Shown here: positions 3,700-62,436 of the stretch, in pieces
Position numbering within the stretch: the first letter of the stretch is position 1
Layout of the letters: every line of letters begins with the position of its first letter
Assembly (NCBI GenBank): GCA_038087875.1
Contig: CM075993.1
Coordinates: 6,078,001-6,142,000 of the forward strand
Direction: 5' to 3'
Source: Malacoraja senta
Lineage: Eukaryota
Length of the DNA: 64,000 nucleotides
Notes under the pieces: model-generated
What the model saw: only the letters and a program-made list of their open reading frames with translations
Databases searched by the model: none
What the model was told of the DNA's origin: nothing
Position numbers and translations under genes: made by a program

Positions 3700-5157
3700 C
3701 TTTCTTTCCATGGCTGTGCTTAGCTTGAGCACTTGCATGCACAGTGTCCTCCCTGCATTGCCTCTGCCGCCGGTACATGCCCCCTGCTTCCTTCTGCTGT
3801 GTCTTGTATCTACAGACTAACCTCTCTGGCTGGTTGTTTAAGCCAGGCAGAGTAACAGGGGCAGAGTTACTGCTAGGAATCACAGAGTGGGTGATGCAGG
3901 TTCGTACAGGATCTGCGTGCCAAGTAGGGTTTCTAGGAACAAGGGCCAAGAGGCTGGCATCAGCAGATGACAATATAGGTTGAAGCTGTAAGCAACATGC
4001 AGAAACTCTGCTGGTCTTCGTTGGCCCTTGTACCTTTCGTGGCCACTAACTTGCAGGACCTTGTCGTCCACTTGGGGATGGTTCCACAAGGGTTACTCCT
4101 GTAATTTTGGGCATTTCCTCAGAGTTTATGTGCTGCTTTCTTCTGCAAATGTTAGAGGATGGCTGTTGAGAAGAGAAGCAGAGATATGAAAGATATGCAT
4201 CGAGTGGATGGGATGAGAAATGGAGCAAGGAGGAAGTATGTTGAGCCGTGTGCAAGTGCGAAAGAAGTCTGAAGCCATAAAATGAAACCAACTCAATAGC
4301 CAGGTGTACAAAAAGACCGACTAATGTGGCTTCTGACTTTTGGAATCCAAAGACAAGGAACTCTTGAGAGACAAAGATGCAGCAGTCGGAAGCATTCAAC
4401 TTTTGTTTTATTAGTAGGGCTGAAATAATTCACAGTATTATTTGAAGTAAAATCTAATAGTCCAGAAAATCTGTTAATTCACATCCACCAAATTCCCAAG
4501 ACTGTTGGATTGTCAGAGTTTTACAATAGCACGGAATGCGTATCCTTTATCACAAGTTTCAGAACAGGAAACATTAAAAATGTCAGGCTAATTAATTAAC
4601 AGCAGAAATATAATACTACCTCTTAACGGTAAATAAAACGAGTTCTGGACATTAATGATCGTCGCATTCTGGGAATACCTTCAACCATTCACACGTTTGT
4701 GGACTTGAGTATTTGCTCTAACCACAGCAAGAATAGATGAAATGTTTGCCAGAAGATCCGGCGTTTGTGTGTTTCATGCATTCAACTAATTCCTTCGAAT
4801 GCATATTGTTTTAACACTATTAACAGTATTGAGTTACTTTCCTAAGTAATATCAGCTTATTTTGTGCATTGTAATCACCAATGAGAATGGCATTTCCCCT
4901 TCCCATGACACAAACGGTTGTCTCCTGATGCTGTCTCCACCGATCTACCTTATTTGTTAGCTCTGTTAATAGATGCTTAATGTCTTATATTCACCGTTTT
5001 ACCCTGTGCTTGCAGGCCCATTACTGAATGAATTAAAAATGGCAGATTAATATGGACCCTACAAGATGGCGGCAGGCAGAGGAAAGGAACGATGGCAGTG
5101 AGCAGGTTGGGGGCTCACCTCCCGCTGCAGGAGGTGCCCCGGGGCATGGAGGCTGAT

Positions 5158-5467
5158 CTAGTTTAGAGGCCTGGTTTAGTTTAGAGAAACAACATGGAAA
5201 CTGGCCCTTTTGCACATTCAGTCCACCCCGACCAGCGATCCCCGCACACTAACACTATCCGACATACCAGGGACAATTTACAATTTTACCAAGCCGTGTA
5301 GCCTACAAATCTGTACATCCATGGAGTGTGGGAGGAAACCGGAGCACCTGGGGAAAACCCACGCAGGTCACGGGGAGAAGGCACAAACTCCATACAGACA
5401 GCACCCGTGGTCAGGATAAAACCCGCGTCTCTGGCCTTGTAAGACAGCAACTCTACCGCTGCGCCAC
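5158..5467 (-). mobile_element. HE1/V-SINE-type SINE
   Basis: Same family. Confidence 0.8.
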
Positions 5468-5806
5468 TGAAGGCGAAGGACAACGCGTTCACGGGCCGAT
5501 GGCGAAGCATCGTAGTGATCGATGTGGCGGAATGGGCCGCTGGCCCTGAAGCAGCTTGGATCGTCCCGTTAGATCGGGCGCTATTCCAAGTGGCAAAGCG
5601 CGCGTAATGAACAGAGCAGCGGCAGAGGACATCAACATACCGTCTGGGCAGGCCGACCGATGCAACTCCAGCCCAGTGCCGCCGACAGGATAAAGGGCCT
5701 ATGTGGCCAAGTCAAGACTCTAACATTCTGTTTTAAATTTCAGATTGAAGGGTAAATAGTGTCTAAATCACGGCGACTCCTGTGTACTGACTCAGTGTGG
5801 TCTCCT

Positions 5807-5946
5807 GGGTGGAAGATTGCAACCTTCACGTGGTCCGCCCTGTTTCGACTAATGCAATCAACTCGACGTGCACAAACGGAAGATCAAATATAACAAGTTG
5901 TCCTACAACTTTAGGCTGTGCACGCCACACGAAAGAAGAAGAAGAA
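5807..5946 (+). mobile_element. Ribozyme-headed short retroposon, copy A
   Basis: Same sequence; ribozyme at 5807-5859 (first G missing); TSD GTGGTCT(C/A)CTG; GAA tail. Confidence 0.8.
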
Positions 5947-6483
5947 GTGGTCTACTGTCTTACACTCTGTACTTAGTATGATTGATTGATTGATTGATTT
6001 TTACTTTATTAAAAATCAATTGTGCCTAATGTATAGCAGGATTGGCACTGAACTGTGTGTAATAAAGAATTTCACTCTACTTTGGTACATGTGACAGTAA
6101 CGTACCCTTGGACCATTGCAAAATTATATATCTCAAAATCTCTGTAGAGCTATTCCATTTGTAACCCTGTATATGCATTGTGGCGCGATCAACAAATATA
6201 TTCCTGCTTGATGCCAAGTTCTGGGAATAAAAATGGCGTTGACCCCTTCACTCATACCCGATGGACCGTGGCCCAGGGTCACGTCTTGTGGAACAACCAA
6301 CACCTTTCTCCCTGCCTCGACTTGATCCAGAGACGCATCAGAAATGCCAGAGGACATATTTTTCAGGTTTTGGTGGGCACCCGCTCAGTTGCTTTATTAT
6401 GGGGACCTGTGAGTTACTGATTTAGGGTCAGAGTCGTACTGCTGAGAAACAGGCCATTTGGCCCACTGTGTCCATGCTGATTA

Positions 6484-8301: not shown

Positions 8302-11300
8302 CTGATCATAAAGAACCCGATAACTAGTCAATCAACGTGCACCCAACATACTCTGCTGAAGAAGGGTCTCGACCCGAAACGTCAGAGGGGGAATTCCAGA
8401 ACCAGGGGCACAGTTTAAGAATAAGGGGTAGACCATTTGGAACTGAGTTGGAGGCCAATTCCCTGGATGTTTTCAAGAGAGAGTTAGATTTAGCTCGTAA
8501 GGCTAACGGAATCAGGGGATATAGGAAAAAAGCAGAAACGGGGTACTGATTTAAGATGATCAGCCATGATGATATTGAATGGCAGTGCTGACTCGAAGGG
8601 CCGAATGGTCCACTCCTGCACCTATTATACTGTTTCTATGTCACCCATTCCTACTATCCAGGGATACTGCCTGTTCCGCTGAGTTACTCAAGTATTTTGT
8701 GTCTATCCTCAGTTTAAACCAGAATCTGCAGTTCCTTCCGACACACTCTGCAAAATAAAGTCCAGTAAATAAAGTCTAGTAAAGTCTAATTAAAGATAGC
8801 CCGAAGGTTTCCAATAAGGTAAATAGTAGCTCAGGACCGCTCTCAAGTTGTTGGTAGGATGGTTCAATTAAATGATAACAACTGGGAAGGAACTGTCCAT
8901 TTATCTGGAGGTGTGCGTTTTCATACTTCTATGCCTCTTGCCTGATGGAGAGGGAAGAGGGAGAGACCAGGGAGAGACTGGTCCTTGATTATGCTGGTGG
9001 CCTTGTGGAAACAGCATTTATAAATAGTCAATGGAAGGGACGTTTGTTTGTGTGATGGTCCGGGCTGCATCCACAATTCTGCAATTTCTTATGGTCTTGG
9101 ATGGAGATGTTCCCAATCCATGCCCTGATAAGATACTTTCTACGTAGAGGTTAGTGGGAGTTGTTGGGGGAATGACAAACCTCCGAAGCCTTCTCAGGAA
9201 GTAGAGGTGTTGGTGTGCTTTATTGGCCATTGCTTTGATATGGGCGATCCAGAACAAGTGTATATAACATTCTCCCAGAGCCAATGCCACATAAAATCTC
9301 TGACCCCAGCTAGCCTGGGCAAAGTCTCCAGATCGTGGATTTTAAGGAGGTGGAGTAAATAAAATATGATTAAGACTCCTGTTTCGTGCAGGAATATGGA
9401 CCTCCACAACCACAGTGGGCAACCTAGCAGCCGACTCTTAAAGCCATAGAAATAAGGAACTGTAGATGCACAAAAGGACACAAAGTGCTGAAGTAACTAA
9501 GCGGATCAGGCAGCATCTCTGGGGATAAGTGATGTTTCGGGTCGAGTCGCTACTTCAGAAAGGTCTGAAGAAGGGCCTTAACCTGAAACATCACCTATCC
9601 AGAGATGCTGCCTGACCTGCTGATTTAGACAAGCACTGTGTCCATTCCTGCTCTTTATACTAGTGCTTCAACAGGTGACACCATGGGCAAAATCACAAAG
9701 AGGAACTGATGTGTCGAGGCTTCAAAGAGAGAGGAAAAAAGTAAAAGGAAGCAACAAAACAGGCAGTAAGGTCACAACAATCGATCTGAAATATTTCTGC
9801 TTCTCTCACCACGGATTCCTGCTGACCTGACCTGCTGAATCACTCCATCATTTTCTGTTTTTATTTCAGGTGACAGGTATTTGCTGATTTTTCTGTCATA
9901 TCAAGCATTCTGCCCTATAAAGAGCATCGGTACAAATTCTCACATGCATTTTTACAATTTTGTGGGTGCTGTAATGAGAAAGGACCTATTTCTGGAAGAT
10001 GTTTGTGAAGCTGGATAAATACATTATGTAGTTGAATTGGTAGCAATGCTGAAGTCCTTGGAATCCTGTCAGGCTACTGGCTGGAGAATCATAGAAATAG
10101 TAATAGGGGCAGGAGGACCACTTCAGCTCCTATGAATTATGAACTCATGAAATGGTTTTCCTGTCTAGGGTTCATACCTGGCACATTCTTCTCTCGCTCT
10201 GGAAGCGACCGTCTCCTGAAAAAGCGATCCGCTTTGTTTAAAGAAGTTATCGTATTTCTCGGAGTCAAGCCGTGGGTAAATCAAATGGAAACCTCCCAGG
10301 TGTTCCTTCTCATACTTCTCCACCTGCTGGAGCCAAGCCGACTGGTAGTTCTCGTACTGTTCCCGTCTGTGGGGGTAACGGATGCCAAATCAGGAGATGG
10401 GACAAAACACGTCACTCACTGACTTCGTCAAGAATTAGAGTCATAGAGTGATACAGTGTTGAAACAGGCCCTTCGGCCCAACTTGCCCACACCAGCCAAC
10501 ATGTCCCAGCTGCACTCATCCCACCTGCCTGGGCTTGGTCCATATCCCTCCAAACCTGTCCTATCCATGTACCTGTCTAACTGTTTCTTAAACTGTGAGT
10601 CTGAAGAAGGGTTTCGACCCGAAACGTCACCCATTCCTTCTCTCCAGAGATGCTGCCTGTCCCGCTGAGTTACTCCAGCTTTTTGTGTCTATTAACTGTT
10701 TCTTAAACGTTGGGATAGTCCCAGCCTCAACTACCTCATCTGGCATTTTGCTCCATATATCCACCACCCTTTGAGTGAGATATTCTGAGATATTTCTACA
10801 GTCGTAGAGTGTTACAGTTCAGAAATGGGCTTTTCGGCTCGCCGTATCCATGCCGACCTTCATGGTCATCTATTTGCCCTCATTAAAACCTCCCCCCACG
10901 CCTCACGTTGAAGACCTTCATAAATGCAACAGTTTCAAACAACTTTAGAGATACAACACAAAAACAGGGCCTTTGGCCCACCAAGTCAGTGCCGACCAGC
11001 ACTCACTCCATACACTGGCACGATCTTACACATTAGGGATAATTTCCAGAAGCCAATTACTAGAAGCCTGTACATCTTTGGAGTGTGGGGGAAACCGGAA
11101 CACTCGGAGAAAACCCACGTGGTCACGGGGAGAACGTACAAACTCCGTAAAGACAGCACCCGATGGTCGGGATCGAACCCGGTTCTCTGACATTGAAAGG
11201 CAGCAACTCTACCACTGTGCCACCAACTGATAACATTCGCCACATGGACAGGTCACAGGATAAGCAGTTGCACAATGTAAAGTTAATGAACAGCATAATC

Positions 11301-14300
11301 GATTCCTTCCTCGACCGTGATGACCAGAATTACACACAATACTCCAAGTGTGGCCTAAACACTGCTTTGTGAAGTTTCAACATAGCATCCTGAGGTTTAT
11401 GATCTCCGCCCTGCCCTATTAGGGCAAGCATGCCAACCGCCTTCACCGCCCTATCCATTCCAGTTGCCACTTTCAGCTGGGAATGTGCAAGAGTGCAGAC
11501 GTTTACATAGCGCGCCAACAATATCGGGACTGCAATATCTCTACCTGAATTCACGTGTTGTGTGACGTTGCCACAGACGTTCCTGTACCCTGCGCCTCTC
11601 CTCCTCATTCACCTTTTGTTTGTCACTTGCTCCAAGGTTTATCAGACAAATTGTGTCGTACAGTAGATTGTCCTTCACCTCTCTGTCCAGCCTGGAGTCT
11701 GTAGTAAAACTGGGGGAATGGTTCACCTGGAAAGCAGAATGCAGGCATGGCATTGGTACAAAATTAAAGGTAACTGCAATTGCCCTCAAAACATCCGTGC
11801 TACGATGCAAGTAGTTCACGGCTCCCGATTCTAATCACTATCCTTCGGACAACTCAAAAATTCCATCCACGGCTTTTTTCGGCACTTCTATACTGACCCT
11901 CCACTATTGCTTCTGACCGTTTGGCCGAAAGCATGTAGTGCAGCCAGAGATATCATCTCCCTTTTAAAACCTGTTCTCATATTAACAGGGCTCAATCCCT
12001 CCCATTGGTCCCTAAACTATAGGGGCCTTTAGAGTATGCATAAGGAACTGTGGATGCTGGAATCTTGAGCAATGCTGGAGTACATCTGAAGGTCTCGACC
12101 CCAAACATTGCCTATCCACATTCTCCAGATCAGTCTGAAGAAGGGCTTCGACCCCAAACATTGCCTATCCACATTCTCCAGATCAGTCCGAAGAAGGGCT
12201 TCGACCCAAAATATTGACTATCCACATTCTCCAGGGCAGTCTGAAGAAGGGTCCCAGCCCAAAACATCACCTATCCATGTTCTCCAAAGCAGTCTGAAGA
12301 AGGGGTTCGACCTGAAACGTTGCCTATCCACATTCTCCAGAGCAGTCTGAAGAAGTGCCCCAACCCCAAACATTGTCAATGCATGTTCTCCAGGGATCCT
12401 CAGTATCAGCTAGACTCAATGGGAAGCTGAAGTCTCCCACCTTAGAGGCAGAAGGCTGTGCGGTCAGGTATTCCTTCGGAAACAGAAGCACTTGATCCAG
12501 ACCGTCCCTGCAGTACAGAGGGAGTGCTACACTGTTGACAGTTAGGTGAAAATACAAAAGGCACGTTTCAGCAAGGTGGGTTGTGCGAACATTGGCAGAG
12601 CCCAAATGTTATTTCAAGCCAGTGGAGTCTCACCCAGATTCCTGAGCCAACCGCACAGGCGGTGCGGTGGCGCAGCAGTAGAGTTGCTGCCATACAGCGC
12701 TGAAGACCCGGGTTCGACCCCGACTACGGGTGCTGTTTGTACGGAGTTTGTACATTCTCCCTGTGACCCATGTGGGTTTTCTCTGAGATCTTTGGTTTCC
12801 TCCCACACTCCAAAGACGTACAGGTATGTAGGTAAATTGACTTGGTACAAGTGTAAAATGTCCCTAGTGTGTGTAGGGTAGTGTTAATGTGCGGGGATCG
12901 CTGGTTGGTGCAGACTCGGTGGGCCTGTTTCCGCGCTGTATCCCTAAACTAAACTAAGATAACGTCAAAACAGATACAATGGTCATTCACGTCATTACCA
13001 CTGCCCTCTGTGGACCCTGGTGTCAGACTTTCCTTGTCATTTAACCCACCTCCAAGAGCCATGGTTTCAAATTACGATCCATCAGAATATCGAATCCTAA
13101 TATCTCAAAGCAGGCACAGCCACAGAGATGGGTGGAGAAACAAGTCCTGTAATTGTGCTTCAAGATCGGATAGGCAGATATTAGCGTTTTAACAATGACG
13201 TCCTCGATGTCCGTCCAAACCTTTGGCACGTCGTGGCCGTGATCTGTCAACCATTTGTTTAGTGAAGACAGTTTCCTGCATAATACAGAACACAGCATGG
13301 GTGAACTAATACAAGGATGGATAAAGAGTGCATTCATTTTAACTTGGAGACTAGGCTTGTATTCACTGGAGTTTAGAAGGATGAGGGGGAATCTTATAGA
13401 AACATATAAAATTATAAAAGGACTGGACAAGCTAGATGCAGGAAAGAAATTCCCAATGTTGGGCGAGTCCAGAACCAGGGGCCACAGTCTTAGAATAAAG
13501 GGGAGGCCATTTAAGACTGAGGTGAGAAAAACGTTTTCACCCAGAGATGTGAATTTGTGGAATTCCCTGCCACAGAGGGCAGTGGAGGCCAAATCACTGG
13601 ATGGATTTAAGAGAGAGTTAGATAGAGCTCCAGGGGCTAGTGGAATCAAGGTATGTGGGGAGAAGGCAGGCACGGGTTATTGATTGGGGACGATCAGCCA
13701 TGATCACAATGAATGGCGGTGCTGGCTCGAAGGGCCGAAATGGCCTCCTCCTGCACCTATTTTCTATGTTTCTATGACTCAAGGAATTGCAGATTCTGGT
13801 TTACCCAAAAACAGAGCGGGTCAGGCAGCATCTCTGGAGAAAAGGAATAGGTGACATTTCACGTCGAGATGCTTCTTCAGACTTAGTCAGGGGGAAAGGG
13901 GAACGAGAGATATAGACGGCAAATGAATGAAAGATATGCAAAAAGCAACAATAATCAAGGAAATATAGAGCCCACAATGGTCCATTGTTGGCTGTGGGGT
14001 AGGTGATAATGTTATACTGACAGTGAAACGCAACAGGACGACAATGAAACTAGTACAATGACGGATGGGAAACGGAGATGGGGGTTGATGCGGGAAAGAG
14101 GGGAGATGCAAACATCTTCTATATGATGACAGAGAGGCACAAAAGACTTCAGATGCTGGAATCATTGGCAAAACACAAAGTGCTGGAGGAACTCAGCGGG
14201 TCAGGCTGCATCTGCGGAGTGCATGGACAGACGACGATTCGGGTTGGGGCCTTTCTTCAGACACCTTTATGATGTTGCATATCGATTAGTTTAGTTTAGA

Positions 14301-27206: not shown

Positions 27207-27384
27207 TCTGCATGGGTTGGGATTGGAAATATTGTCTGTCCATTCCCTCCATATTTTATCTGTTTGCTTTGTTGTTAACTTCTCCCAGCTAACAATGATC
27301 CATTCTACATTTTTCTTGATCTGCATTCACTTTGTCCTATTTTCACACCTTGCACTTCCTTATCCATGTATCTCCCTCTCCCCT

Positions 27385-27519
27385 TCTTCTTCTTGCGTAT
27401 GGCGTGCACAGCCTAAAGTTGTCGGTCAGCTTGTTCTATTTGATCTTGTTTGTGCACGTCGGGTTGATTGCATTAGTCGAAACAGGGTGGACCACGTGAA
27501 GGTTGCAATCTCCCACCCC
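27385..27519 (-). mobile_element. Ribozyme-headed short retroposon with (GAA)n tail, copy B
   Basis: 11-bp TSD CCCTCTCCCCT at 27374-27384 and 27522-27532; nested in a Penelope-like 3' end. Confidence 0.8.
27466..27519 (-). ncRNA. Minimal HDV/CPEB3-like self-cleaving ribozyme (best copy)
   Basis: P1 GGGGUGG/CCACCCU, P2 GAUUGCA/UGCAAUC, P3 ACC/GGU, L3 UUCACGU, GU, UUCG mini-P4, J4/2 CUAA. Confidence 0.8.
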
Positions 27520-29734
27520 AACCCTCTCCCCTGACATCAGTCCGAAGAAGGGTCCCAAACCGAAACGTCACCCATTCCTTCTCTCCAGAGATGCTGCCTG
27601 ACCCGCTGAGTTACTCCAGCATTTTGTGTCTATCTTCGACTTAAACCTGTATCTGCAGTTCCTTCCTACCCAATGGATGTCCAAATCTGTTTGTGGAAAA
27701 TGAATTATGAAAGAAGAATTCTTCGTACATGAGGTTTCAGGACCTGGTGGTGGATGTTCACTATTGATTAAATCTTGATGTGGAAAGTTGAAAGGATAAG
27801 TTCTGAAGAGGGGAGATATATATTTGCCATTTGAATGGGCCCAGAGTGGAGAGGGATGACTCTTCATCAATGATTGGATCTGGTTTTGAGGACTGGAAGG
27901 GGATCATGGCTTGGAGGGAGGTAAGGATGTTCAATGATCAGGATGCAGTATCGCAGCGGTAGAGTTGTTGTCTTACAGTGCCAGAGTTAAATCATGACTA
28001 TATGTACTGTAAAGGATTTGTACGTTCTCCCTACGACCGTGTGGGTTTTCTCCGAATGCTCCGGGTTCCCCCCACACTCCAAAGACATACAGGTTTGTAG
28101 GTTAATTGGCTTTGGTAAAATTAAAAATTGTCTTGAGTGTGTGGGATAGTGCTAGTATTTGGGGTGATCACTGGTCGGCATGGACTCAGTGGGCTGAAGG
28201 GCCTGTTTCACCCATGCATCTCTAAAGTCTAAAGCAGGGGTTCCCAACCTTTTTCATCCCGTTTACCCCTGGCAACTTTAATCGCACATAACAATGTTAT
28301 TTCACTTATTTATGATCAACTAATGATGAACAGATATACCAGAACCAAACAGTCAGTCAATGAGAAAAAAATAGGTGACAATTTGGGTTTCGACCCGAAA
28401 CATTAGCTATTGCTTCTCTCCAGAGATGCTGCCCGACACCCTGAGTTACTCCAGCATCTGAAGGGTTTCGGCCCGAAACGTTGCCTATTTCCTTCGCTCC
28501 ATAGATGCTGCTGCACCCGCTGAGTTTCTCCAGCATTTTTGTGTACCTTCTGCAATTACTTCTTGCACATAGATGATAGATACATATTAAACAAAAATTC
28601 AACAACAAAAAAACTCCAATACGAGTGCAAAAAAAGTCCTTAGTGCAACCAAAGGCATAACATAGTTCATAGTTGAGGTGAGACATCGAGATTTAAACGG
28701 GATTTGAGGGGAAAGTATATTTTTTGCAGAGAGTGGTTAATATCTGGAATTTGCTGCCAGAGGTGGTGGTGGAGTCAGATGCATGTGTTCAGGGGCGTTT
28801 CCGACAGGTGGGGTTGGGCTAGAAGTCGGCGTGGACGTTTCTGTGCTGTACAATTCCATGTCTTAATAAATTGAAGCAAGGGAATCATGGCCGTCCGAAG
28901 GGGGGGTGCGCGGGGTGCGCGGGGTGCGACCGCACCCCCCTTATTTTCCCCAGAGTAAGAAAAAATCCCCAGAAAATATTTTTTTTAAATCAGAGCGCAA
29001 TCAGCATTTCCACTTTGTAGGAAATCGCCCGAAATTGGCCTATCAGTAAAATATTTTTTGAATACATGTCATGTCTTAAGTCCTGTTAATGATAATATTG
29101 GCCAAATAAAATATGTCACAAAATCGAGAATCTCTTTATTTGCAAAGCCTGTTTGTCCACTTTCTGTGGAAGGTTGCAAGCTGTGAGTCATGCTCCAAGG
29201 AGTCTGAACCCTAGATGGAAGTTGAGGATAAGGCGAGGTCCAAATGTCTCTCCTTTTGTTTATATGTATGAGGGTTTTGTAGAAGAGCTAAGAGGTGTTG
29301 CATATGCATGATTAGGTTTGGTCAGATAGGGGGGTGTTGTAAAGTACTGTTAATTATGTTGCAGAGTGTTTGTGCTGTTATCTTGTGAAGTGTGAAGCCT
29401 TGTTCAAATTGTTTAAACTACCTGGAGAAATGTTTCTATTCTTTTGTAAACTGTCTTCCTGCTAGAACTTTCTGTAGAAACAATGTAATGGTGAATTTTG
29501 TGATTGGGTTCGGGAACTGTCAATAGCTATAATCTAATCAAGATTCAAGAGAGTTTATTGTCATGTGTCCCAGATAGGACAATGAAATTCTTGCTCGAAC
29601 TTCTCTCGAGCATGAAGGAGAGTTACATAGACCGCCTAGGACCATGTGTCGACCTAGCTGCAAGTTTGAGTCGAGTGCAAACGCTTCTAAACTCGCAAAT
29701 TAGGTCCCCGCAGTGAGACAGGCCCTTTAGTTGA

Positions 29735-44800: not shown

Positions 44801-47800
44801 GTGTGGGGATCACCAGTCGCGCGGACTCGTTTAGATTGACATCCGTGCTGCCCAGTGGGCACCCGCCATATTCATCCCATCTTGGTCCATAGACTTCTAT
44901 GTCTAGACAGTTCAAACGCTCGACCTGACATTCTAATTATGGTCTGTACGGTAAGGAGGAACAAAAAAAGGTTTTAAGTCGTAGATACAGGGAACTGTAG
45001 ATGCTGGTTTATAAAAGAAAGACACTGAGTGCTGGAGTAACTCAGTGGGTCAGGCAACATCTCTGAAGAACATAGATAGGTGACGTTTCGTGTCGGAGGC
45101 CCTTCTTCAGACCTGATTTGTTTCTAAATAATGTTCTCTGATTCTAGGCCAACCCTTTCCGAGAGAGAATCTGCCTTGTGTTTTCGACAGCGTTTGACAG
45201 GGATGGCAGCTTGTGCTTTGAGGACTTCTTGGACATGCTCAGTGCGTTTAGTGAATCGGCAACCCCCGAGATCAAGTCGCACTACGCGTTTCGGATCTTT
45301 GGTGAGTTTGATCTCCTCCTGGCTCCCCGTGCAATCGATACCAGTATTCAATGAAACGGTTCTTGCAGCTTAGGCAGATGTGTGTTATTGTGTGTCTCTG
45401 GGGCACTGCGAACAGACCTTGCTGCCCCACCAGCCTGTGGTTCAGCCTTGCTCCTACCCCAAAAAAGAACATGTGAAACTCCTTAAGGGCCTGTCCCACT
45501 TTCACGACCTAATTCACGACCTCTGCCGAGTTTGCCCTTGACTCATACTCGCAGCAAGGTCGTCACGGGGTCGTAGCAGGCCGTGATGCTAGTCGTAGGT
45601 ACTCGTGGCATCAAGTAGGTCGGAGCGTTTTTCTAGCCTGATGAAAAATGTCCACGAGTAAAAAAGGTCGCGAATTAGGTCGTGAAAGTGGGACAGGCCC
45701 TTTACTCTTGTACTTAGAGACCAGTGGGATGCCTGAAGTAGTTGACCTCAACTGGAAAAGCAATGAGGAGGTGATCATTGAGTGTAACACTGTGTTACTA
45801 ACATGTAGCAGTAGTATATATTTTATTTCAAACATGTAAAACAAAAAAAGTTAAAAAGAAAGCAAAATACAATAAAATGAAGTGAACAATAAACCTAGAC
45901 ACCTCATTGAATCACTTCTCATAAACATCACAAATTAAATCTTACATGTTCGAAAAGTAGGAGGAAGTATAGACTTATTTATTCCTATCCCCTTTTCTGC
46001 TATTCATTAATTAATTCACAAACTTTATCTCATCCACACATTATATATATATATATAGATATACGCAAACATATACACACGCACGCAAATATACATATAT
46101 ACAGTTTATAAACAATTATCCAAATTCTATGTACAACATGAATATCACACTGTGTCAATAAACTAAAACTTCACCATCATCACAGCCCTTCCTCTTTCTT
46201 ATACCTCTGGACAGATAAGGGTACTTTGGCAGCATTCCTGTTTTCACCTGCTTGCTGGTGTTCGTTGTAAGATATGATCTCCAAGGGCCTGTTTCCACGC
46301 TGTATGACCCAATGACTAAGTCCTGGCAGCATCCTGAGTAACTCATAGAAAATCGGTGCAGGAGTAGGCTATTCGGCCCTTCATTCAATACGATCATGGC
46401 TGATCATCCAGAATCAGTACCCAGTTCCTGCTTTCTCCTCATATCCCTGGATTCCGTTAGCCCTAACAGCTATACCTAAACGGGTTTAGATGTATCCAAC
46501 TCTCTCTTGAAACCATCCAGTGAATTGGCCTCCACTGCGTTCTGTGGCAGAGAATTCCACAGATTCACAACTCTCTGGGTGAAAAAAAGCTTTTCCTCAT
46601 CTCAGTCCTAAATGGCCTACCCCTTATTCTTATTTAAGTTTCAAGATAAAAGTGTACAGGGTTGGAGGTAATATCGTAAGATGGATAGGGGAGAAGATAA
46701 GCGATAGAAAATGACACATGCAAATGTGTAATTTAGACTGGCATTAATGAATGAGTCCCAGGGATGGGAACGATTTATTATAATAGTGGCTTAGATCAAG
46801 GTGTCTGCACTGTGATGGTGGCTGATGAATGATACAAGGGTAAGTGGGTTAGCAGGTGGTGCTGCTGACACAGAGAGACTGCAATGGGATGTGGAGAGGT
46901 GGCAGATGGAGTCAAATGTCAGATTTTCACTTTGGAAGGAAGAACAATAAAGCAACTGATTTAAATGGGATGAGTGTGTCGGGGTGGGAGATTGCAGCCT
47001 TCACGTGGTCCGCCCTATTTCGACGAATGCAATCAACCTGGCGTACACAATCAAATAAGATCAAATAGAACAAGTTGTCCTACAACTTTAGGCTGTGCAC
47101 GCCATACGCAAGAAGAAGAAGTGAGGCGATCTTTGTGCATGGAACTCGGGGAGTTTTGTATACAATCACAGCACACTGCAGGAAGGAGAAGCAATACTGC
47201 TAACTTTTATTTATTGTAAGGGATATGTGGTATAAAAGCAGGGATGCTTTGATGGAATCTTCTCGGAGACAGACGGACTAATGTGCACTGTTGTGGTCAT
47301 ATTTCAGGACGGATATTGGGAAATTCACTGAGGTGATGAGGTTGTTGTATGAAGATATATTGAGCAGGTTGAGCCGGACTAGGTGTGTAGGAGAGTGAGG
47401 AGACCTTACTGTAACACCAGGGGCATGTCACAGTAGATGGTGATTCACTGATGATTCGAGTGATGTTTGTTTAGTTTCAGGGCTGGCCCATTTATGATGG
47501 AGATGTGGAGAAATGTCTTCTCCTTTCCCCTCCCACCCCCCCCCCCCCAGGGAACTGTGGAGGCAGAGTCACCAGGGTGGAGAAAACACGGTGAACTATG
47601 AGGGAGGGGGTGGGGAGGCTGTGATCTCTTTGGGCGCGTGGCTTCATGTTCCTAGTGTGCAGTAATTATCTGCACTGTTCTAAAGCGTTTCTGCTTCACG
47701 GTGACAGATTTTGATGACGACGGGACGTTGGACAGAGAGGATCTGAAGAAGCTGGTGAACTGCCTGACAGGAGAGATGGCCGACACCCAGCTGACCGAGG

Positions 47801-48882
47801 CGGAGATGAACCAGCTGATTAACAACGTACGGCCCACTGGGGAGTTCAGCCTCGCCATCGCGCTGCCCACAACTTATCTGTCACTAGTCTTGTTGCAATG
47901 CCCCTATCACATGCACGCCTTCATTTCCCATTGTGGGTGTAGGGCTGAAGATGTCCTGGTCGGGTTGCTCCTGGGCCTGGCCAAGCTGGCCATCAGCGAG
48001 CGAGTCATGGCGCCAGGCGGAAGAGGGCTCTGCCCGAGCCGGCTGCCTGCCCCGTTTCCAGGGTTACATCCGCGCCCGGGTGGTACTAGAGAGGGACTAC
48101 GCGCTGTCCATGGGCGCTCTGGGGGATTTCCGGGACCGCTGGGCACGGAATGCATCCTCAATAAGGATGGTGATACTGTTGTTTAAGAGCGTATTTGATG
48201 TAAGAATATTTCTTTAGATAATTGGGTGATTTTGCATTGTATATATTAGAATTATAAAAAAAAGACTCGACCATTGTAAGCTGAGGCCTGTGCCTGAACG
48301 TAGCCTGCACGCGTGGTGTTCAGCCCCATCCCTGTGCTCCCACACTTTCAGTATCTCTTCAGGCGCGTGGCATTTCTAGATCTCTGAGCTTTGGTTGAGG
48401 CCTGGGGTACAGGTTGTGTCCAGGGAATTGAAGGTGTTGTGAAGGTGTGTGTGTGTGTACTTGACTTTTGTGTTACATTTTTCCCCAAGATACTGGAAGA
48501 ATCTGACATTGACAAAGATGGGACGGTCAACCTCTCTGAATTCCAGCACGTCATCTCCAGATCCGCAGACTTTGTGAGGTGAGAAACGAGCCCCCTTCAC
48601 TCACCAGGAGGGGGAAGAGGGGATTGTCCTTCCCCTTCTCTCATTCTTCCCTTCCTCCCCCCCTCTCCCCTTCCAACTCTCCCCTTCCTCCCCTTCCACC
48701 CCCCCTCTCCCCTTCCACCCCCCCTCTCCCACTCTCCCCTTCCACCCTCTCCCCTTCCACCCCCCCCTCTCCCCTTCCACCCCCCCCCCCGCCCGCTCTC
48801 CCCTTTCTTCACCCCCCTCTTTCTCCCCCTCCCCTAACCGGCTGTTTGTTTACCTTGCAGCTCATTCAAGATGGTCCTCTGA
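41770..48882 (+). CDS. CIB1: Calcium and integrin-binding protein 1, 7 coding exons, 189 aa
   Basis: join(41770-41820,42296-42330,44265-44364,45148-45301,47708-47826,48490-48578,48861-48882) = 570 nt. MGASAS myristoylation motif, [24 protein letters not shown]-hands [13 protein letters not shown] and [14 protein letters not shown]-terminus SSFKMVL. AATAAA at 48998. Confidence 0.96.
42296..42330 (+). CDS. CIB1: CIB1 exon 2
   Basis: 35 nt, [17 protein letters not shown] donor. Confidence 0.93.
44265..44364 (+). CDS. CIB1: CIB1 exon 3
   Basis: 100 nt, ends ICELPELK. Confidence 0.9.
45148..45301 (+). CDS. CIB1: CIB1 exon 4
   Basis: 154 nt, ANPFRERIC...HYAFRIF. Confidence 0.95.
45486..45701. 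mobile_element. PIF/Harbinger-type MITE
   Basis: 37-bp TIR AGGGCCTGTCCCACTTTCACGACCTAATTC.. with 1 mismatch; TTA TSD. Confidence 0.85.
46981..47121 (+). mobile_element. Ribozyme-headed short retroposon, copy C (CIB1 intron 4, sense strand)
   Basis: Ribozyme at 46981-47034 with J4/2 CGAA and P1.1 G>A; GAA tail; TSD not clear. Confidence 0.78.
47708..47826 (+). CDS. CIB1: CIB1 exon 5 (EF-hand)
   Basis: 119 nt, [13 protein letters not shown]. Confidence 0.95.
47930..48263 (+). mobile_element. Tx1-clade LINE 3' fragment in CIB1 intron 5
   Basis: [15 protein letters not shown] / [19 protein letters not shown]-rich tail. Confidence 0.7.
48490..48578 (+). CDS. CIB1: CIB1 exon 6 (EF-hand)
   Basis: 89 nt, [18 protein letters not shown]. 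Confidence 0.95.
48625..48836. repeat. C-rich tandem tract (CCCTCTCCCCTTCCA) in CIB1 intron 6
   Basis: Seen directly; G-quadruplex-prone on the - strand. Confidence 0.85.
48861..48882 (+). CDS. CIB1: CIB1 last coding exon
   Basis: ttgcag acceptor, SFKMVL then stop. Confidence 0.92.
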
Positions 48883-62298: not shown

Positions 62299-62436
62299 GG
62301 GGTGGAAGATTGCAACCTTCACGTGGTCCGCCCTGTTTCGACTAATGCAAACAACTCGACGTGCACAAACGGAAGATCAAATAGAACAAGTTGTCCAACA
62401 ACTTTAGGCTGTGCACGCCACACGAAAGAAGAAGAA
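62299..62436 (+). mobile_element. Ribozyme-headed short retroposon, copy D (antisense in the UNC45A 3' region)
   Basis: 13-bp TSD AGCATCTCTGAAG at 62287-62299 and 62436-62448; ribozyme at 62299-62352. Confidence 0.8.

What the first reader, a model, noticed from the sequence alone, without database searches (positions are those of the whole stretch)
27385..27519. A ~135-nt retroposon that is essentially an HDV/CPEB3-like ribozyme plus a 3' stem-loop and (GAA)n tail
Seen: four dispersed copies (5807-5946 +, 27385-27519 -, 46981-47121 +, 62299-62436 +) start at almost the same nucleotide and end in (GAA)n; three have 11-13 bp TSDs. The first 54 nt of this copy read GGGGUGG-GA-GAUUGCA-ACC-UUCACGU-GGU-CCACCCU-GU-UUCG-A-CUAA-UGCAAUC. 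This gives a 7-bp P1 opening with a G.U wobble, a 7-bp P2, a 3-bp P3, a one-pair P1.1, a UUCG mini-P4 and a J4/2 with the catalytic C. Established: this is the nested double-pseudoknot of HDV-family ribozymes, which process the 5' ends of R2, RTE and L1Tc retrotransposons. From memory, L3 UUCACGU followed by P1'-GU matches the mammalian CPEB3 ribozyme, and CUAA/CGAA are the antigenomic/genomic HDV J4/2 forms. Inference: a SINE-like element with no visible tRNA head or pol III boxes that excises itself from host read-through transcripts and is mobilised by a GAA-tailed (RTE-like) LINE. It may be relevant to the origin of CPEB3-type ribozymes. I cannot tell whether this family has already been described.
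Basis: partly seen in the sequence, partly recalled or inferred. Interest (0 to 1): 0.92.

Follow-up and report, generated by a model that had tools for sequence, protein, structure and literature searches.

The report
Ribozyme-headed SINE with RTE-like partner
A short, very abundant mobile DNA element in this animal genome starts with a miniature hepatitis-delta-type self-cutting RNA, and the same genome holds a gene-carrying relative that probably copies it; the design is known from other animals, so this is a new example, not a new principle.

Summary
All four window copies are real. They belong to a young retroposon family, here called S, of about 122-140 nt with thousands of copies. Exact-word counts give 4602 ribozyme cores and 6047 3' ends in the 1.94-Gb genome.

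Target-site duplications (TSDs, mode 11 bp) bracket the element from G1 to the (GAA)n tail. The first 54 nt fit the HDV-like double pseudoknot without a P4 helix. The only ribozyme families among the Rfam matches are HDV-family models, all below threshold at 12.6-20 bits.

Copies within S show no covariation because they are too similar. The genome holds two more ribozyme-headed families:
- X is an RTE-like LINE with an open frame of about 1000 aa. Its P4-bearing ribozyme scores up to 64 bits on the CPEB3 model. It ends in (GAA)n.
- Y is a second P4-less, SINE-like family of about 175 nt with a (GAA)n tail.

Across S, X and Y, 10 of 18 helix pairs change on both sides and stay paired.

Best reading: S is carried in host transcripts, cuts its own 5' end at G1, and is copied by LINE X. 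Self-cleavage is not shown and no RNA data were available. The design matches R2 SIDEs, NARTc and RTE ribozymes, so this is a new member of a known kind. The link to CPEB3-type ribozymes remains an open lead.

The parts
27385..27519 (-). Whole S-family retroposon copy (subfamily A), G1 at 27519, tail end at 27385
   Evidence: 100% query of the genome search
27466..27519 (-). 54-nt P4-less HDV-like ribozyme module. P1 27513-27519 with 27484-27490. P2 27504-27510 with 27466-27472. P3 27501-27503 with 27491-27493. L3 27494-27500. G37/U38 27482-27483. Linker 27477-27481. J4/2 with presumed catalytic C at 27473-27476.
   Evidence: sequence; Rfam sub-threshold alignments; descriptor scan; covariation across families
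27397..27465 (-). Variable middle and 3' stem-loop domain. The outer 8-bp stem is 27451-27458 with 27403-27410, and its predicted form is kept in all four subfamily copies folded.
27385..27396 (-). Pre-tail motif and (GAA)n tail
   Evidence: LINE X ends in the same kind of tail
27522..27532 (-). Upstream copy of the 11-bp TSD. 27520-27521 are 2 extra T between the TSD and G1.
27374..27384 (-). Downstream copy of the 11-bp TSD
   Evidence: A contig of run X5 joins 27373 to 27522, which is the empty-site form of the host repeat (table 8, record 18).
5806..5946 (+). S copy, subfamily B1; the first base reads T
46981..47121 (+). S copy, subfamily B2 (J4/2 CGAA; G37 mutated to A in this copy); no TSD found
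62299..62436 (+). S copy, subfamily B1. Its pre-tail motif ACACGAAA matches the 3' end of LINE X.

Best explanation
S is a non-autonomous non-LTR retroposon built from three modules: a 54-nt minimal, P4-less HDV-like self-cleaving ribozyme at the 5' end, a variable middle, and a 3' stem-loop followed by a (GAA)n tail. It has no promoter of its own that I could detect. Copies lying in transcribed DNA are carried in host or read-through transcripts. The ribozyme cuts just 5' of G1, which sets the RNA's 5' end (inferred). The RNA is then copied into new sites by target-primed reverse transcription. This leaves the (GAA)n tail, TSDs of about 11 bp and some 5'-truncated copies (shown by anatomy). 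The likely source of the enzyme is LINE X of the same genome (inferred). X is an RTE-like element of about 3.2 kb with young copies. It starts with a CPEB3-type HDV-like ribozyme that has a P4 helix, encodes an endonuclease at the N-terminus of an open frame of about 1000 aa, and ends in a very short 3' UTR plus (GAA)n. A second P4-less family, Y (about 175 nt), has the same design.
For: Anatomy: TSDs in 36 of 47 non-redundant copies, 7-15 bp with mode 11. The junction is at G1 +/-2 nt in 33 of the 36, and none runs on 5' as a longer element. 5'-truncated copies are seen.

Fold: a relaxed HDV descriptor run over 722,938 nt (both strands of all DNA held) hit only S copies plus 2 low-complexity loci. 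Among the Rfam matches to three copies the only ribozyme families are HDV-family models RF00622, RF02682 and RF00094, at 12.6-20 bits, aligned over the full model with P4 deleted and P1 starting at G1.

Covariation across S, X and Y (8 sequences): 93.6% of cells paired against 36-45% when slid; 10 of 18 pairs changed on both sides; score 0.601 against 0.02-0.13 slid; 0 of 500 shuffles reach it.

Constraint between subfamily consensuses: ribozyme 0-5 differences in 54, middle 6-30 in 54-56, 3' end 0-2 in 29.

Against pol III: no tRNA, 7SL or 5S match at the copies, and subfamily C has a T4 run inside the element.

Partner: RF00622 run on the genome gives 39 of 60 listed matches over the 35-bit cut-off, best 64.2. 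Nine of the 14 endonuclease-coding places that match X's N-terminus at 93% identity or more lie next to one of these ribozyme matches. X has Exo_endo_phos at its N-terminus and open frames of 940, 1008 and 1014 aa. Its stop codon lies where predicted, followed by about 20 nt and (GAA)n, with ACACGAAA shared with S subfamily B1. Relatives are about 1000-aa EN+RT proteins on contigs of about 3.2 kb.

Precedent: P4-less 'minimal' HDV-like ribozymes cleave in vitro (PMC10879173, abstract and introduction passages). Ribozyme-plus-3'-end non-autonomous elements exist (PMC3414825, abstract).
Against: No cleavage assay and no RNA data, so neither the cut at G1 nor expression is shown. S itself scores well below every Rfam HDV-family threshold (20 bits at best against 35-50). 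It lacks P4 and has a single-pair P1.1, so it could be slow or inactive. Within S there is no covariation: 0 of 18 pairs change on both sides. This says nothing either way, because the family is young. The cross-family covariation rests on only three lineages with 2-4 sequences each. The partner link is weak at the 3' end: X and S share only the (GAA)n tail and an 8-nt motif, and X lacks S's stem-loop. S's helices differ from X's at 10 of 18 pairs, so S is not a recent internal deletion of X. X's RT domain was not read and its clade was not tested by phylogeny. Two X copies resemble each other for about 20 nt upstream of G1, which a clean cut at G1 does not explain.
Confidence: 0.78

Rival explanations
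1. S is an ordinary pol III-type SINE. G1 is a transcription start, and the HDV-like fold is either coincidental or serves another role such as RT binding.
For: Sharp 5' ends at one base are also what an internal pol III promoter gives. S scores below all Rfam HDV thresholds. GTTTCGAC at positions 37-44 loosely resembles a B box (my reading, recalled consensus).
Against: No tRNA, 7SL or 5S match. A T4 run lies inside subfamily C, which still amplified with TSDs. The descriptor match is rare by chance, with 2 non-S loci in 723 kb, and it begins at the element's first base. The same fold, with compensatory changes, heads a protein-coding LINE and a second SINE in this genome.
Confidence: 0.08
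2. The ribozyme reading is right, but the enzyme comes from a LINE other than X. This could be an extinct or unsampled (GAA)n-tailed element that shares S's 3' stem-loop.
For: X's 3' UTR (about 20 nt) lacks S's conserved 8-bp stem and shares only 8 nt plus the tail. S, at 4602-6047 or more copies, far outnumbers X, with 14 places at 93% identity or more.
Against: Pattern scans found no other family carrying S's terminal about 22 nt (4 hits) or its 14-nt 3' word in a non-S context beyond S variants (39 hits). These scans would have missed a LINE that shares the whole S 3' region or differs by a few bases. No other (GAA)n-tailed family, apart from family Y, appeared in the 361 kb held. X is young, has long open frames, the same tail and the same type of ribozyme.
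Confidence: 0.12
3. S's ribozyme is a dead relic. The family spread when an ancestor still had P4, and today's P4-less head is inactive.
For: P4 is absent, P1.1 is a single pair, and the Rfam score is low.
Against: All five subfamilies, including the youngest (2.7% from its consensus), have the same P4-less head and still begin at G1. The independent family Y is also P4-less. P4-less minimal ribozymes are active elsewhere (PMC10879173).
Confidence: 0.05

Closest known systems
R2 SIDEs and R2/R1 hybrid SIDEs of Drosophila (Eickbush & Eickbush 2012, PMC3414825; abstract and outline read)
   Same: A non-autonomous element made of a 5' HDV-like ribozyme joined to sequence that a LINE's machinery uses at the 3' end. 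It is released from a co-transcript by self-cleavage and spreads by TPRT.
   Different: SIDEs insert site-specifically in rDNA, are rare, and carry the R2 ribozyme itself. S is dispersed genome-wide in thousands of copies. Its ribozyme differs from LINE X's at 10 of 18 pairs and lacks P4. Its 3' end shares only the tail and 8 nt with X.
NARTc / L1Tc with the L1TcRz ribozyme of Trypanosoma cruzi (PMC3185411, PMC3383444; abstracts in search listings)
   Same: An autonomous LINE and its short non-autonomous partner both start with an HDV-like ribozyme that frees the RNA from co-transcripts.
   Different: In L1Tc/NARTc the same 77 nt also act as an internal promoter, the partner is a truncated LINE, and the host is a protist with polycistronic transcription.
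RTE-clade LINEs with 5' HDV-like ribozymes (Ruminski et al. 2011; not held here, cited through passages of PMC3774820 and PMC6765202)
   Same: LINE X has the reported layout: a ribozyme at the 5' end just upstream of a single EN+RT open frame, and no promoter of its own.
   Different: X's ribozyme passes the Rfam model of the mammalian CPEB3 ribozyme at up to 64 bits. X's clade is judged from layout only; its RT was not read.
Mammalian CPEB3 ribozyme, Rfam RF00622
   Same: Identical L3 (UUCACGU) and CCCUGU after P1 in S, X and Y. X and Y also share P3 GCG/CGC, and X shares J4/2 CGAA. X and Y pass the family's gathering score.
   Different: CPEB3 is a single-copy intronic element of mammals. 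These are dispersed repeats at retroelement 5' ends. S scores only 13-20 bits and lacks P4.
Minimal (P4-less) HDV-like ribozymes and theta ribozymes of gut phages (Kienbeck et al. 2024, PMC10879173; abstract and passages read)
   Same: A double pseudoknot core without the P4 domain, about 50-60 nt.
   Different: That paper reports nearly 99% of its theta and minimal ribozyme hits in Caudoviricetes phages. S and Y are in an animal genome, at retroposon 5' ends.
Hammerhead-bearing SINE-like elements of schistosomes (described in PMC6765202, passages read)
   Same: A short non-autonomous retroposon that carries a small self-cleaving ribozyme.
   Different: A different ribozyme class, described there as pol III-transcribed and working from tandem copies.

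Membership tests
HDV-like (delta-like) self-cleaving ribozymes | Nested double pseudoknot: P1, P2 and P3 in the order P1-P2-P3-L3-P3'-P1'-(P4)-J4/2-P2' | tested here: met
   Descriptor scan. 95% of cells paired within S. 10 of 18 pairs compensatory across S, X and Y.
HDV-like (delta-like) self-cleaving ribozymes | Cleavage-site G1 closing P1 with a G.U wobble | tested here: met
   G1.U36 in 27 of 34 distinct S rows. G1 is the element's first base.
HDV-like (delta-like) self-cleaving ribozymes | Cytosine in J4/2 at the catalytic position | tested here: met
   C44 is kept in at least 90% of 47 S copies and is invariant across S, X and Y. Its catalytic role is inferred.
HDV-like (delta-like) self-cleaving ribozymes | P4 helix | tested here: not met
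   Positions 39-43 are a 5-nt linker with no pairing. P4 is dispensable in published minimal variants (PMC10879173). X has an 8-bp P4.
HDV-like (delta-like) self-cleaving ribozymes | Score at or above an Rfam HDV-family gathering threshold | tested here: not met
   S: 12.6-20 bits against 35-50. X and Y: 39 of 60 listed places at or above 35 bits on RF00622.
HDV-like (delta-like) self-cleaving ribozymes | Divalent-ion-dependent self-scission 5' of G1 | not testable with these tools
   Needs an in vitro assay. No RNA run was available.
Mammalian CPEB3 ribozyme (RF00622) | Single conserved copy in a CPEB3 intron of mammals | tested here: not met
   The matches are dispersed repeats on many contigs, at retroelement 5' ends.
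Classical SINE (pol III, tRNA/7SL/5S head) | Head derived from tRNA, 7SL or 5S with A and B boxes | tested here: not met
   ARAGORN finds no tRNA at any copy. Rfam at gathering level finds nothing in the window. Subfamily C has a T4 run inside the element.
Classical SINE (pol III, tRNA/7SL/5S head) | Short, non-coding, LINE-dependent retroposition with TSDs and a LINE-like tail | tested here: met
SIDE-type elements (ribozyme + LINE 3' end by internal deletion) | 5' ribozyme identical to that of the autonomous LINE | tested here: not met
   S and X differ on both sides at 10 of 18 pairs and in P4.
SIDE-type elements (ribozyme + LINE 3' end by internal deletion) | 3' end identical to the LINE's 3' UTR | tested here: inconclusive
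   Only ACACGAAA plus (GAA)n is shared with one X copy.
RTE-clade LINE (for family X) | About 3.2 kb, a single ORF of about 1000 aa with N-terminal AP endonuclease then RT, very short UTRs, simple-repeat tail | tested here: met
   EN at the N-terminus. Open frames of 940-1014 aa. Stop, then about 20 nt, then (GAA)n. Relatives with PF03372+PF14529+PF00078 on contigs of about 3.2 kb. The RT of X itself was not read.
RTE-clade LINE (for family X) | RT phylogeny places it in the RTE clade | not tested

The most novel reading that the evidence does not exclude
CPEB3-type ribozymes are the 5' processing ribozymes of a living lineage of RTE-like retrotransposons. This genome keeps the whole set: an autonomous LINE whose ribozyme passes the 'mammalian CPEB3' model at 64 bits, and two SINE-like offshoots that have pared the ribozyme down to a 54-nt P4-less core. 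On this reading the single intronic CPEB3 ribozyme of mammals would be an exapted relic of such an element. S and Y would also be the first abundant eukaryotic examples of the 'minimal' HDV-like ribozyme class, which the one paper read here (PMC10879173) found almost only in phages.
Probability: 0.3. Interest if true: 0.75.

Novelty: new member of a known kind. Interest (0 to 1): 0.55.

Why it matters
This genome offers a natural series of one ribozyme type: with P4 in a coding LINE, and without P4 in two short parasites of it. The element ends mark the cut site thousands of times over. That makes three questions testable:
- How small can a working HDV-like ribozyme be in a eukaryote?
- Is a ribozyme plus a simple-repeat tail enough for an RTE-type enzyme to mobilise an RNA?
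- Did the mammalian CPEB3 ribozyme come from this kind of retrotransposon?

It also matters for annotation. Rfam's thresholds miss all of the 4600 or more S ribozymes, while the 'mammalian' CPEB3 model fires on repeats in this genome.

Tried and rejected
1. RNA evidence. The look-up of sequencing runs listed no holder on record as RNA. The four runs laid are contigs that were only guessed to be RNA, one of them 'probably DNA', and no starts or ends could be read. This says nothing on expression or on cleavage.

2. Covariation within S. There is none: 0 of 18 pairs change on both sides. This is uninformative because the copies are 89-100% alike.

3. Top RVT_1 places. The 30 best of 159,856 candidates have no similarity to S and no (GAA)n tail. 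They are another kind of LINE.

4. Pattern scans for a LINE sharing S's 3' words outside an S context or S's ribozyme followed by non-S sequence. These found only S variants, truncated copies and nested insertions. By design they would miss a LINE that shares the whole S 3' region.

5. Lead at C1:20849563, a ribozyme with an S 3' end 3.3 kb downstream. It is an S copy with its own TSD, split by a nested 5'-truncated L2/CR1-like LINE. Rejected as partner.

6. Lead L079. It is an S copy holding a nested MITE of about 290 bp with terminal inverted repeats.

7. Other (GAA)n sites in the 361 kb held. None is a LINE X 3' end.

8. Sequence words of S in the paper library. One chance primer match only.

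9. Rfam 'evalue' search on two whole 3-kb loci. It was too dilute to list the ribozyme.

10. Host taxon. The Atlas look-up of a TTL exon gave only 'Eukaryota/Chordata' hints. The taxon was left open.

11. Earlier findings of this scan. Nothing on this genome or sequence. The HDV notes found are about phages and one DNA transposon.

12. Papers not held. Ruminski 2011 and Webb 2009 could not be read, so whether they list this family or a SINE like it is unknown. Dfam and Repbase could not be consulted.

Full report
**1. Observation**

They align over their full length at 89-92% identity to the 27385-27519 copy. A 17-nt core motif occurs four times in the window against 0.27 expected by chance, and 0 of 100 shuffles reach four.

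The window belongs to a 1.94-Gb assembly. A DNA search with the 135-nt copy gave 1774 first-look candidates, and all 40 that were scored were 96-100% identical. Exact-word scans of the whole genome count 4602 copies of an 18-nt ribozyme word and 6047 of a 16-nt 3' word. The reversed-pattern controls gave 0. These counts are lower bounds. The similar size of the two counts suggests that most copies are full length.

**2. It is a retroposon whose 5' end is G1**

From 57 near-full-length copies in the window and fetched loci, I dropped 10 as segmental duplicates because they share the same upstream flank. That left 47.
- 36 of the 47 have a TSD by my criteria, 7-15 bp with mode 11. In 11 I found none.
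- The TSD ends at G1 in 12 copies, at +1 in 11, at -1 in 5, at +2 in 3 and at -2 in 2. The other three are at -4, -3 and +3.
- Plus offsets are cases where the target happens to continue with G. Minus offsets are 1-4 extra bases. No copy runs on 5' of G1 as part of a longer element.
- 5'-truncated copies exist (L061, L064, L066, L087).

The 27385 copy has an 11-bp TSD at 27522-27532 and 27374-27384. It sits inside another high-copy repeat. A contig of coded run X5 joins 27373 directly to 27522, which is the empty-site form of that repeat (table 8).

Contigs from runs of four coded organisms carry the element at 88% likeness or more.

**3. Subfamilies and modules**

The copies fall into at least five subfamilies, A, B1, B2, C and D.

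| Region | Differences between subfamily consensuses |
|---|---|
| 54-nt head | 0-5 of 54 |
| Middle | 6-30 of 54-56, including replacement of the inner hairpin in C |
| Last 29 nt | 0-2 of 29 |

Two caveats apply. The loci were fetched by similarity to subfamily A or by an exact 3' word, which inflates the 3' conservation. B1 and D rest on two copies each.

The three head positions that differ at subfamily level are position 8 (J1/2), position 32 (U5-A to U5.G) and position 45 (CUAA to CGAA). All three are neutral for the fold.

The 3' part is predicted to fold, in all four subfamily copies tested, into the same outer 8-bp stem around a variable inner hairpin (z from -1.3 to -2.3).

**4. The head as an HDV-like ribozyme**

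The helices read off the sequence are:
- P1: positions 1-7 with 30-36, opening with G1.U36.
- P2: positions 10-16 with 48-54.
- P3: positions 17-19 with 27-29.
- L3: UUCACGU.
- C22-G37 as a one-pair P1.1.
- C44 in J4/2.

Positions 39-43 are a linker, not a helix, so there is no P4.

Nested folding gives P1+P3 in the minimum-energy structure and P2 in the centroid. This is what a pseudoknot looks like to such a program.

Rfam at gathering level finds nothing in the window. In permissive mode on 161-nt stretches around three copies, five distinct families were listed. Three of them are the HDV-family models, and they are the only ribozyme families:
- CPEB3_ribozyme: 20 and 13 bits.
- HDV-F-prausnitzii: 17.5, 12.6 and 16.9 bits.
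- HDV_ribozyme: 15.6 and 19.6 bits.

All are aligned over the whole model with P4 deleted and with P1 starting at the element's G1. The other two matches, at the third copy, were weak hits to a miRNA and a viral pseudoknot. All HDV-family scores are well below threshold (35-50 bits).

My own relaxed descriptor required a 7-bp P1 opening with G.U, a 5-8-bp P2, a 3-bp P3, a 6-8-nt L3, and a C four bases before P2'. Run over 722,938 nt (both strands of everything held), it hit S copies and only two other loci, both low-complexity.

Within S the helices are 95% paired, but no pair changes on both sides. The family is too young for that test.

**5. The decisive lead: other ribozyme-headed families in the same genome**

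Searching the genome with the Rfam CPEB3 model gave 60 listed matches. 39 are at or above the 35-bit cut-off, and the best is 64.2 bits. None of the 14 control genomes passed the cut-off. The matches come in two lengths.

*Family X (about 84 nt).* Loci L093 and L094 show:
- a full HDV-like ribozyme with an 8-bp P4;
- L3 UUCACGU, P3 GCG/CGC and J4/2 CGAA;
- conserved sequence downstream, with an ATG 30 nt after the ribozyme.

The next 400 nt encode the N-terminus of an AP endonuclease (Exo_endo_phos, 24.6 bits, E 2.4e-5).

That 132-aa piece finds 14 places in the genome at 93% identity or more, with open frames of up to 940, 1008 and 1014 aa. Nine of the 14 lie next to a match.

I predicted the stop codon of the 1008-aa copy from the frame length and spent my last 196 genome letters there. 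The stop is at the predicted place. About 20 nt and a (GAA)n tail follow, and then unrelated flank. The 8 nt before the tail (ACACGAAA) are the same as in S subfamily B1.

Relatives in the protein collection are about 965-1027-aa proteins with Exo_endo_phos, Exo_endo_phos_2 and RVT_1 domains on contigs of about 3.2-3.6 kb, from sea urchins, a starfish, a lizard, insects and a deep-sea fish.

X is therefore a young LINE of about 3.2 kb, autonomous by its layout (its RT was not read), that looks like the RTE clade. Its RT was not read, so the clade is not tested by phylogeny.

*Family Y (about 64 nt).* L095 and a full copy found in L089 show a second SINE-like element of about 175 nt. It has a 54-nt P4-less ribozyme, a body with hairpins, a CAA(GAA)n tail and an 8-10-bp TSD.

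**6. Covariation across S, X and Y**

Eight sequences were aligned in register: four S, two X and two Y. Results:

| Measure | Value |
|---|---|
| Cells forming a standard pair | 93.6% of 125 |
| Same, with 3' partners slid by 1-3 columns | 36-45% |
| Pairs changed on both sides | 10 of 18 (P1 3, P2 5, P3 2) |
| Cells with such a change | 28 |
| Covariation score | 0.601 |
| Score in slid controls | 0.02-0.13 |
| Shuffled mean | 0.204; 0 of 500 shuffles reach the observed score |

P2, the pseudoknotted helix, is different in sequence in each family and complementary in each. Only three lineages are sampled, so the number of independent events is small. It comes from between families, not from between copies.

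**7. Mechanism**

Shown by anatomy: TPRT-type insertion, with tail, TSDs and 5' truncation.

Inferred:
- S has no promoter of its own. I found no tRNA, 7SL or 5S head, and subfamily C has a T4 run inside the element, which argues against pol III.
- S is transcribed as part of longer RNAs.
- The ribozyme cuts 5' of G1.
- X's protein copies the RNA starting from the (GAA)n tail.

The published cases with this logic are R2 and its SIDEs (PMC3414825, abstract), L1Tc/NARTc (PMC3185411 and PMC3383444, abstracts) and RTE elements (passages in PMC3774820 and PMC6765202). A review states that some non-autonomous SINEs use HDV-like ribozymes in diverse metazoans (PMC6765202, section 11). P4-less 'minimal' HDV-like ribozymes cleave in vitro. 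In the one study I could read, nearly 99% of the theta and minimal ribozyme hits were in phages (PMC10879173, passages).

**8. Weak points**

- There is no cleavage or RNA evidence.
- S is below all Rfam thresholds.
- The S-X link at the 3' end is only the tail plus 8 nt, and X lacks S's stem-loop.
- S's helices differ from X's, so S is not a fresh internal deletion of X.
- Two X copies resemble each other for about 20 nt upstream of G1. I could not follow this up.
- The host taxon is unknown, and Dfam, Repbase and the two key papers of 2009 and 2011 were out of reach.

**9. Verdict**

In kind this is known: a ribozyme-headed non-autonomous retroposon. The points of interest are:
- the minimal P4-less core in an abundant eukaryotic element;
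- the co-occurrence of a LINE and two SINE-like families with one ribozyme type;
- the fact that the 'mammalian CPEB3' model fires at up to 64 bits on retrotransposon 5' ends here.

The last point makes a retrotransposon origin of the CPEB3 ribozyme testable, but it does not show it.

Noticed in passing
L089:599-775 (minus strand); L095: Family Y, a second SINE-like retroposon of about 175 nt. It has a 54-nt P4-less HDV-like head, a CAA(GAA)n tail and an 8-10-bp TSD. It passes the Rfam CPEB3 cut-off at about 35-40 bits.
   Followed up: partly
L093 (minus strand), L094, L096, L097: Family X, an RTE-like LINE of about 3.2 kb. It has an 84-nt CPEB3-type ribozyme (up to 64 bits), an N-terminal endonuclease, open frames of 940-1014 aa, a 3' UTR of about 20 nt and a (GAA)n tail.
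   Followed up: partly
L093:134-164 (minus strand) and L094:1-31: The two X copies look alike for about 20 nt upstream of the ribozyme's G1. Either X's 5' boundary lies upstream of the cut site or X prefers such targets. Unexplained.
   Followed up: no
window 27259-27631: The S copy at 27385-27519 is nested in another high-copy interspersed repeat. A contig of run X5 shows that repeat without the insertion.
   Followed up: partly
L079:1105-1538 (as oriented): An S copy interrupted by an element of about 290 bp with terminal inverted repeats (a MITE), inserted at a TA/TTA site.
   Followed up: partly
L091, L092 (C1:20849520-20852960): An S copy with its own 11-bp TSD, split right after the ribozyme by a 5'-truncated L2/CR1-like LINE of about 3.2 kb, with AATC duplicated at the junctions.
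   Followed up: yes
G000 contig C364 (table): At least 10 S copies are spaced about 12.5 kb apart on one contig with near-identical flanks. This looks like a tandemly duplicated unit that carries one copy.
   Followed up: no
window 11158-11230 (-): ARAGORN calls a 'tRNA-SeC' here. In this repeat-rich genome it is more likely a tRNA-derived repeat. Flanks of several loci also carry a tRNA-like SINE.
   Followed up: no
window 13041-13673 (-): This open frame contains a tubulin-tyrosine-ligase family exon (Pfam TTL, E 1.2e-12), so the window overlaps a TTLL-type gene on the minus strand.
   Followed up: no
window 48606-48708 (+): A purine/pyrimidine low-complexity tract is the only place in the window outside S copies that satisfies my relaxed HDV descriptor. 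It is a false positive.
   Followed up: yes
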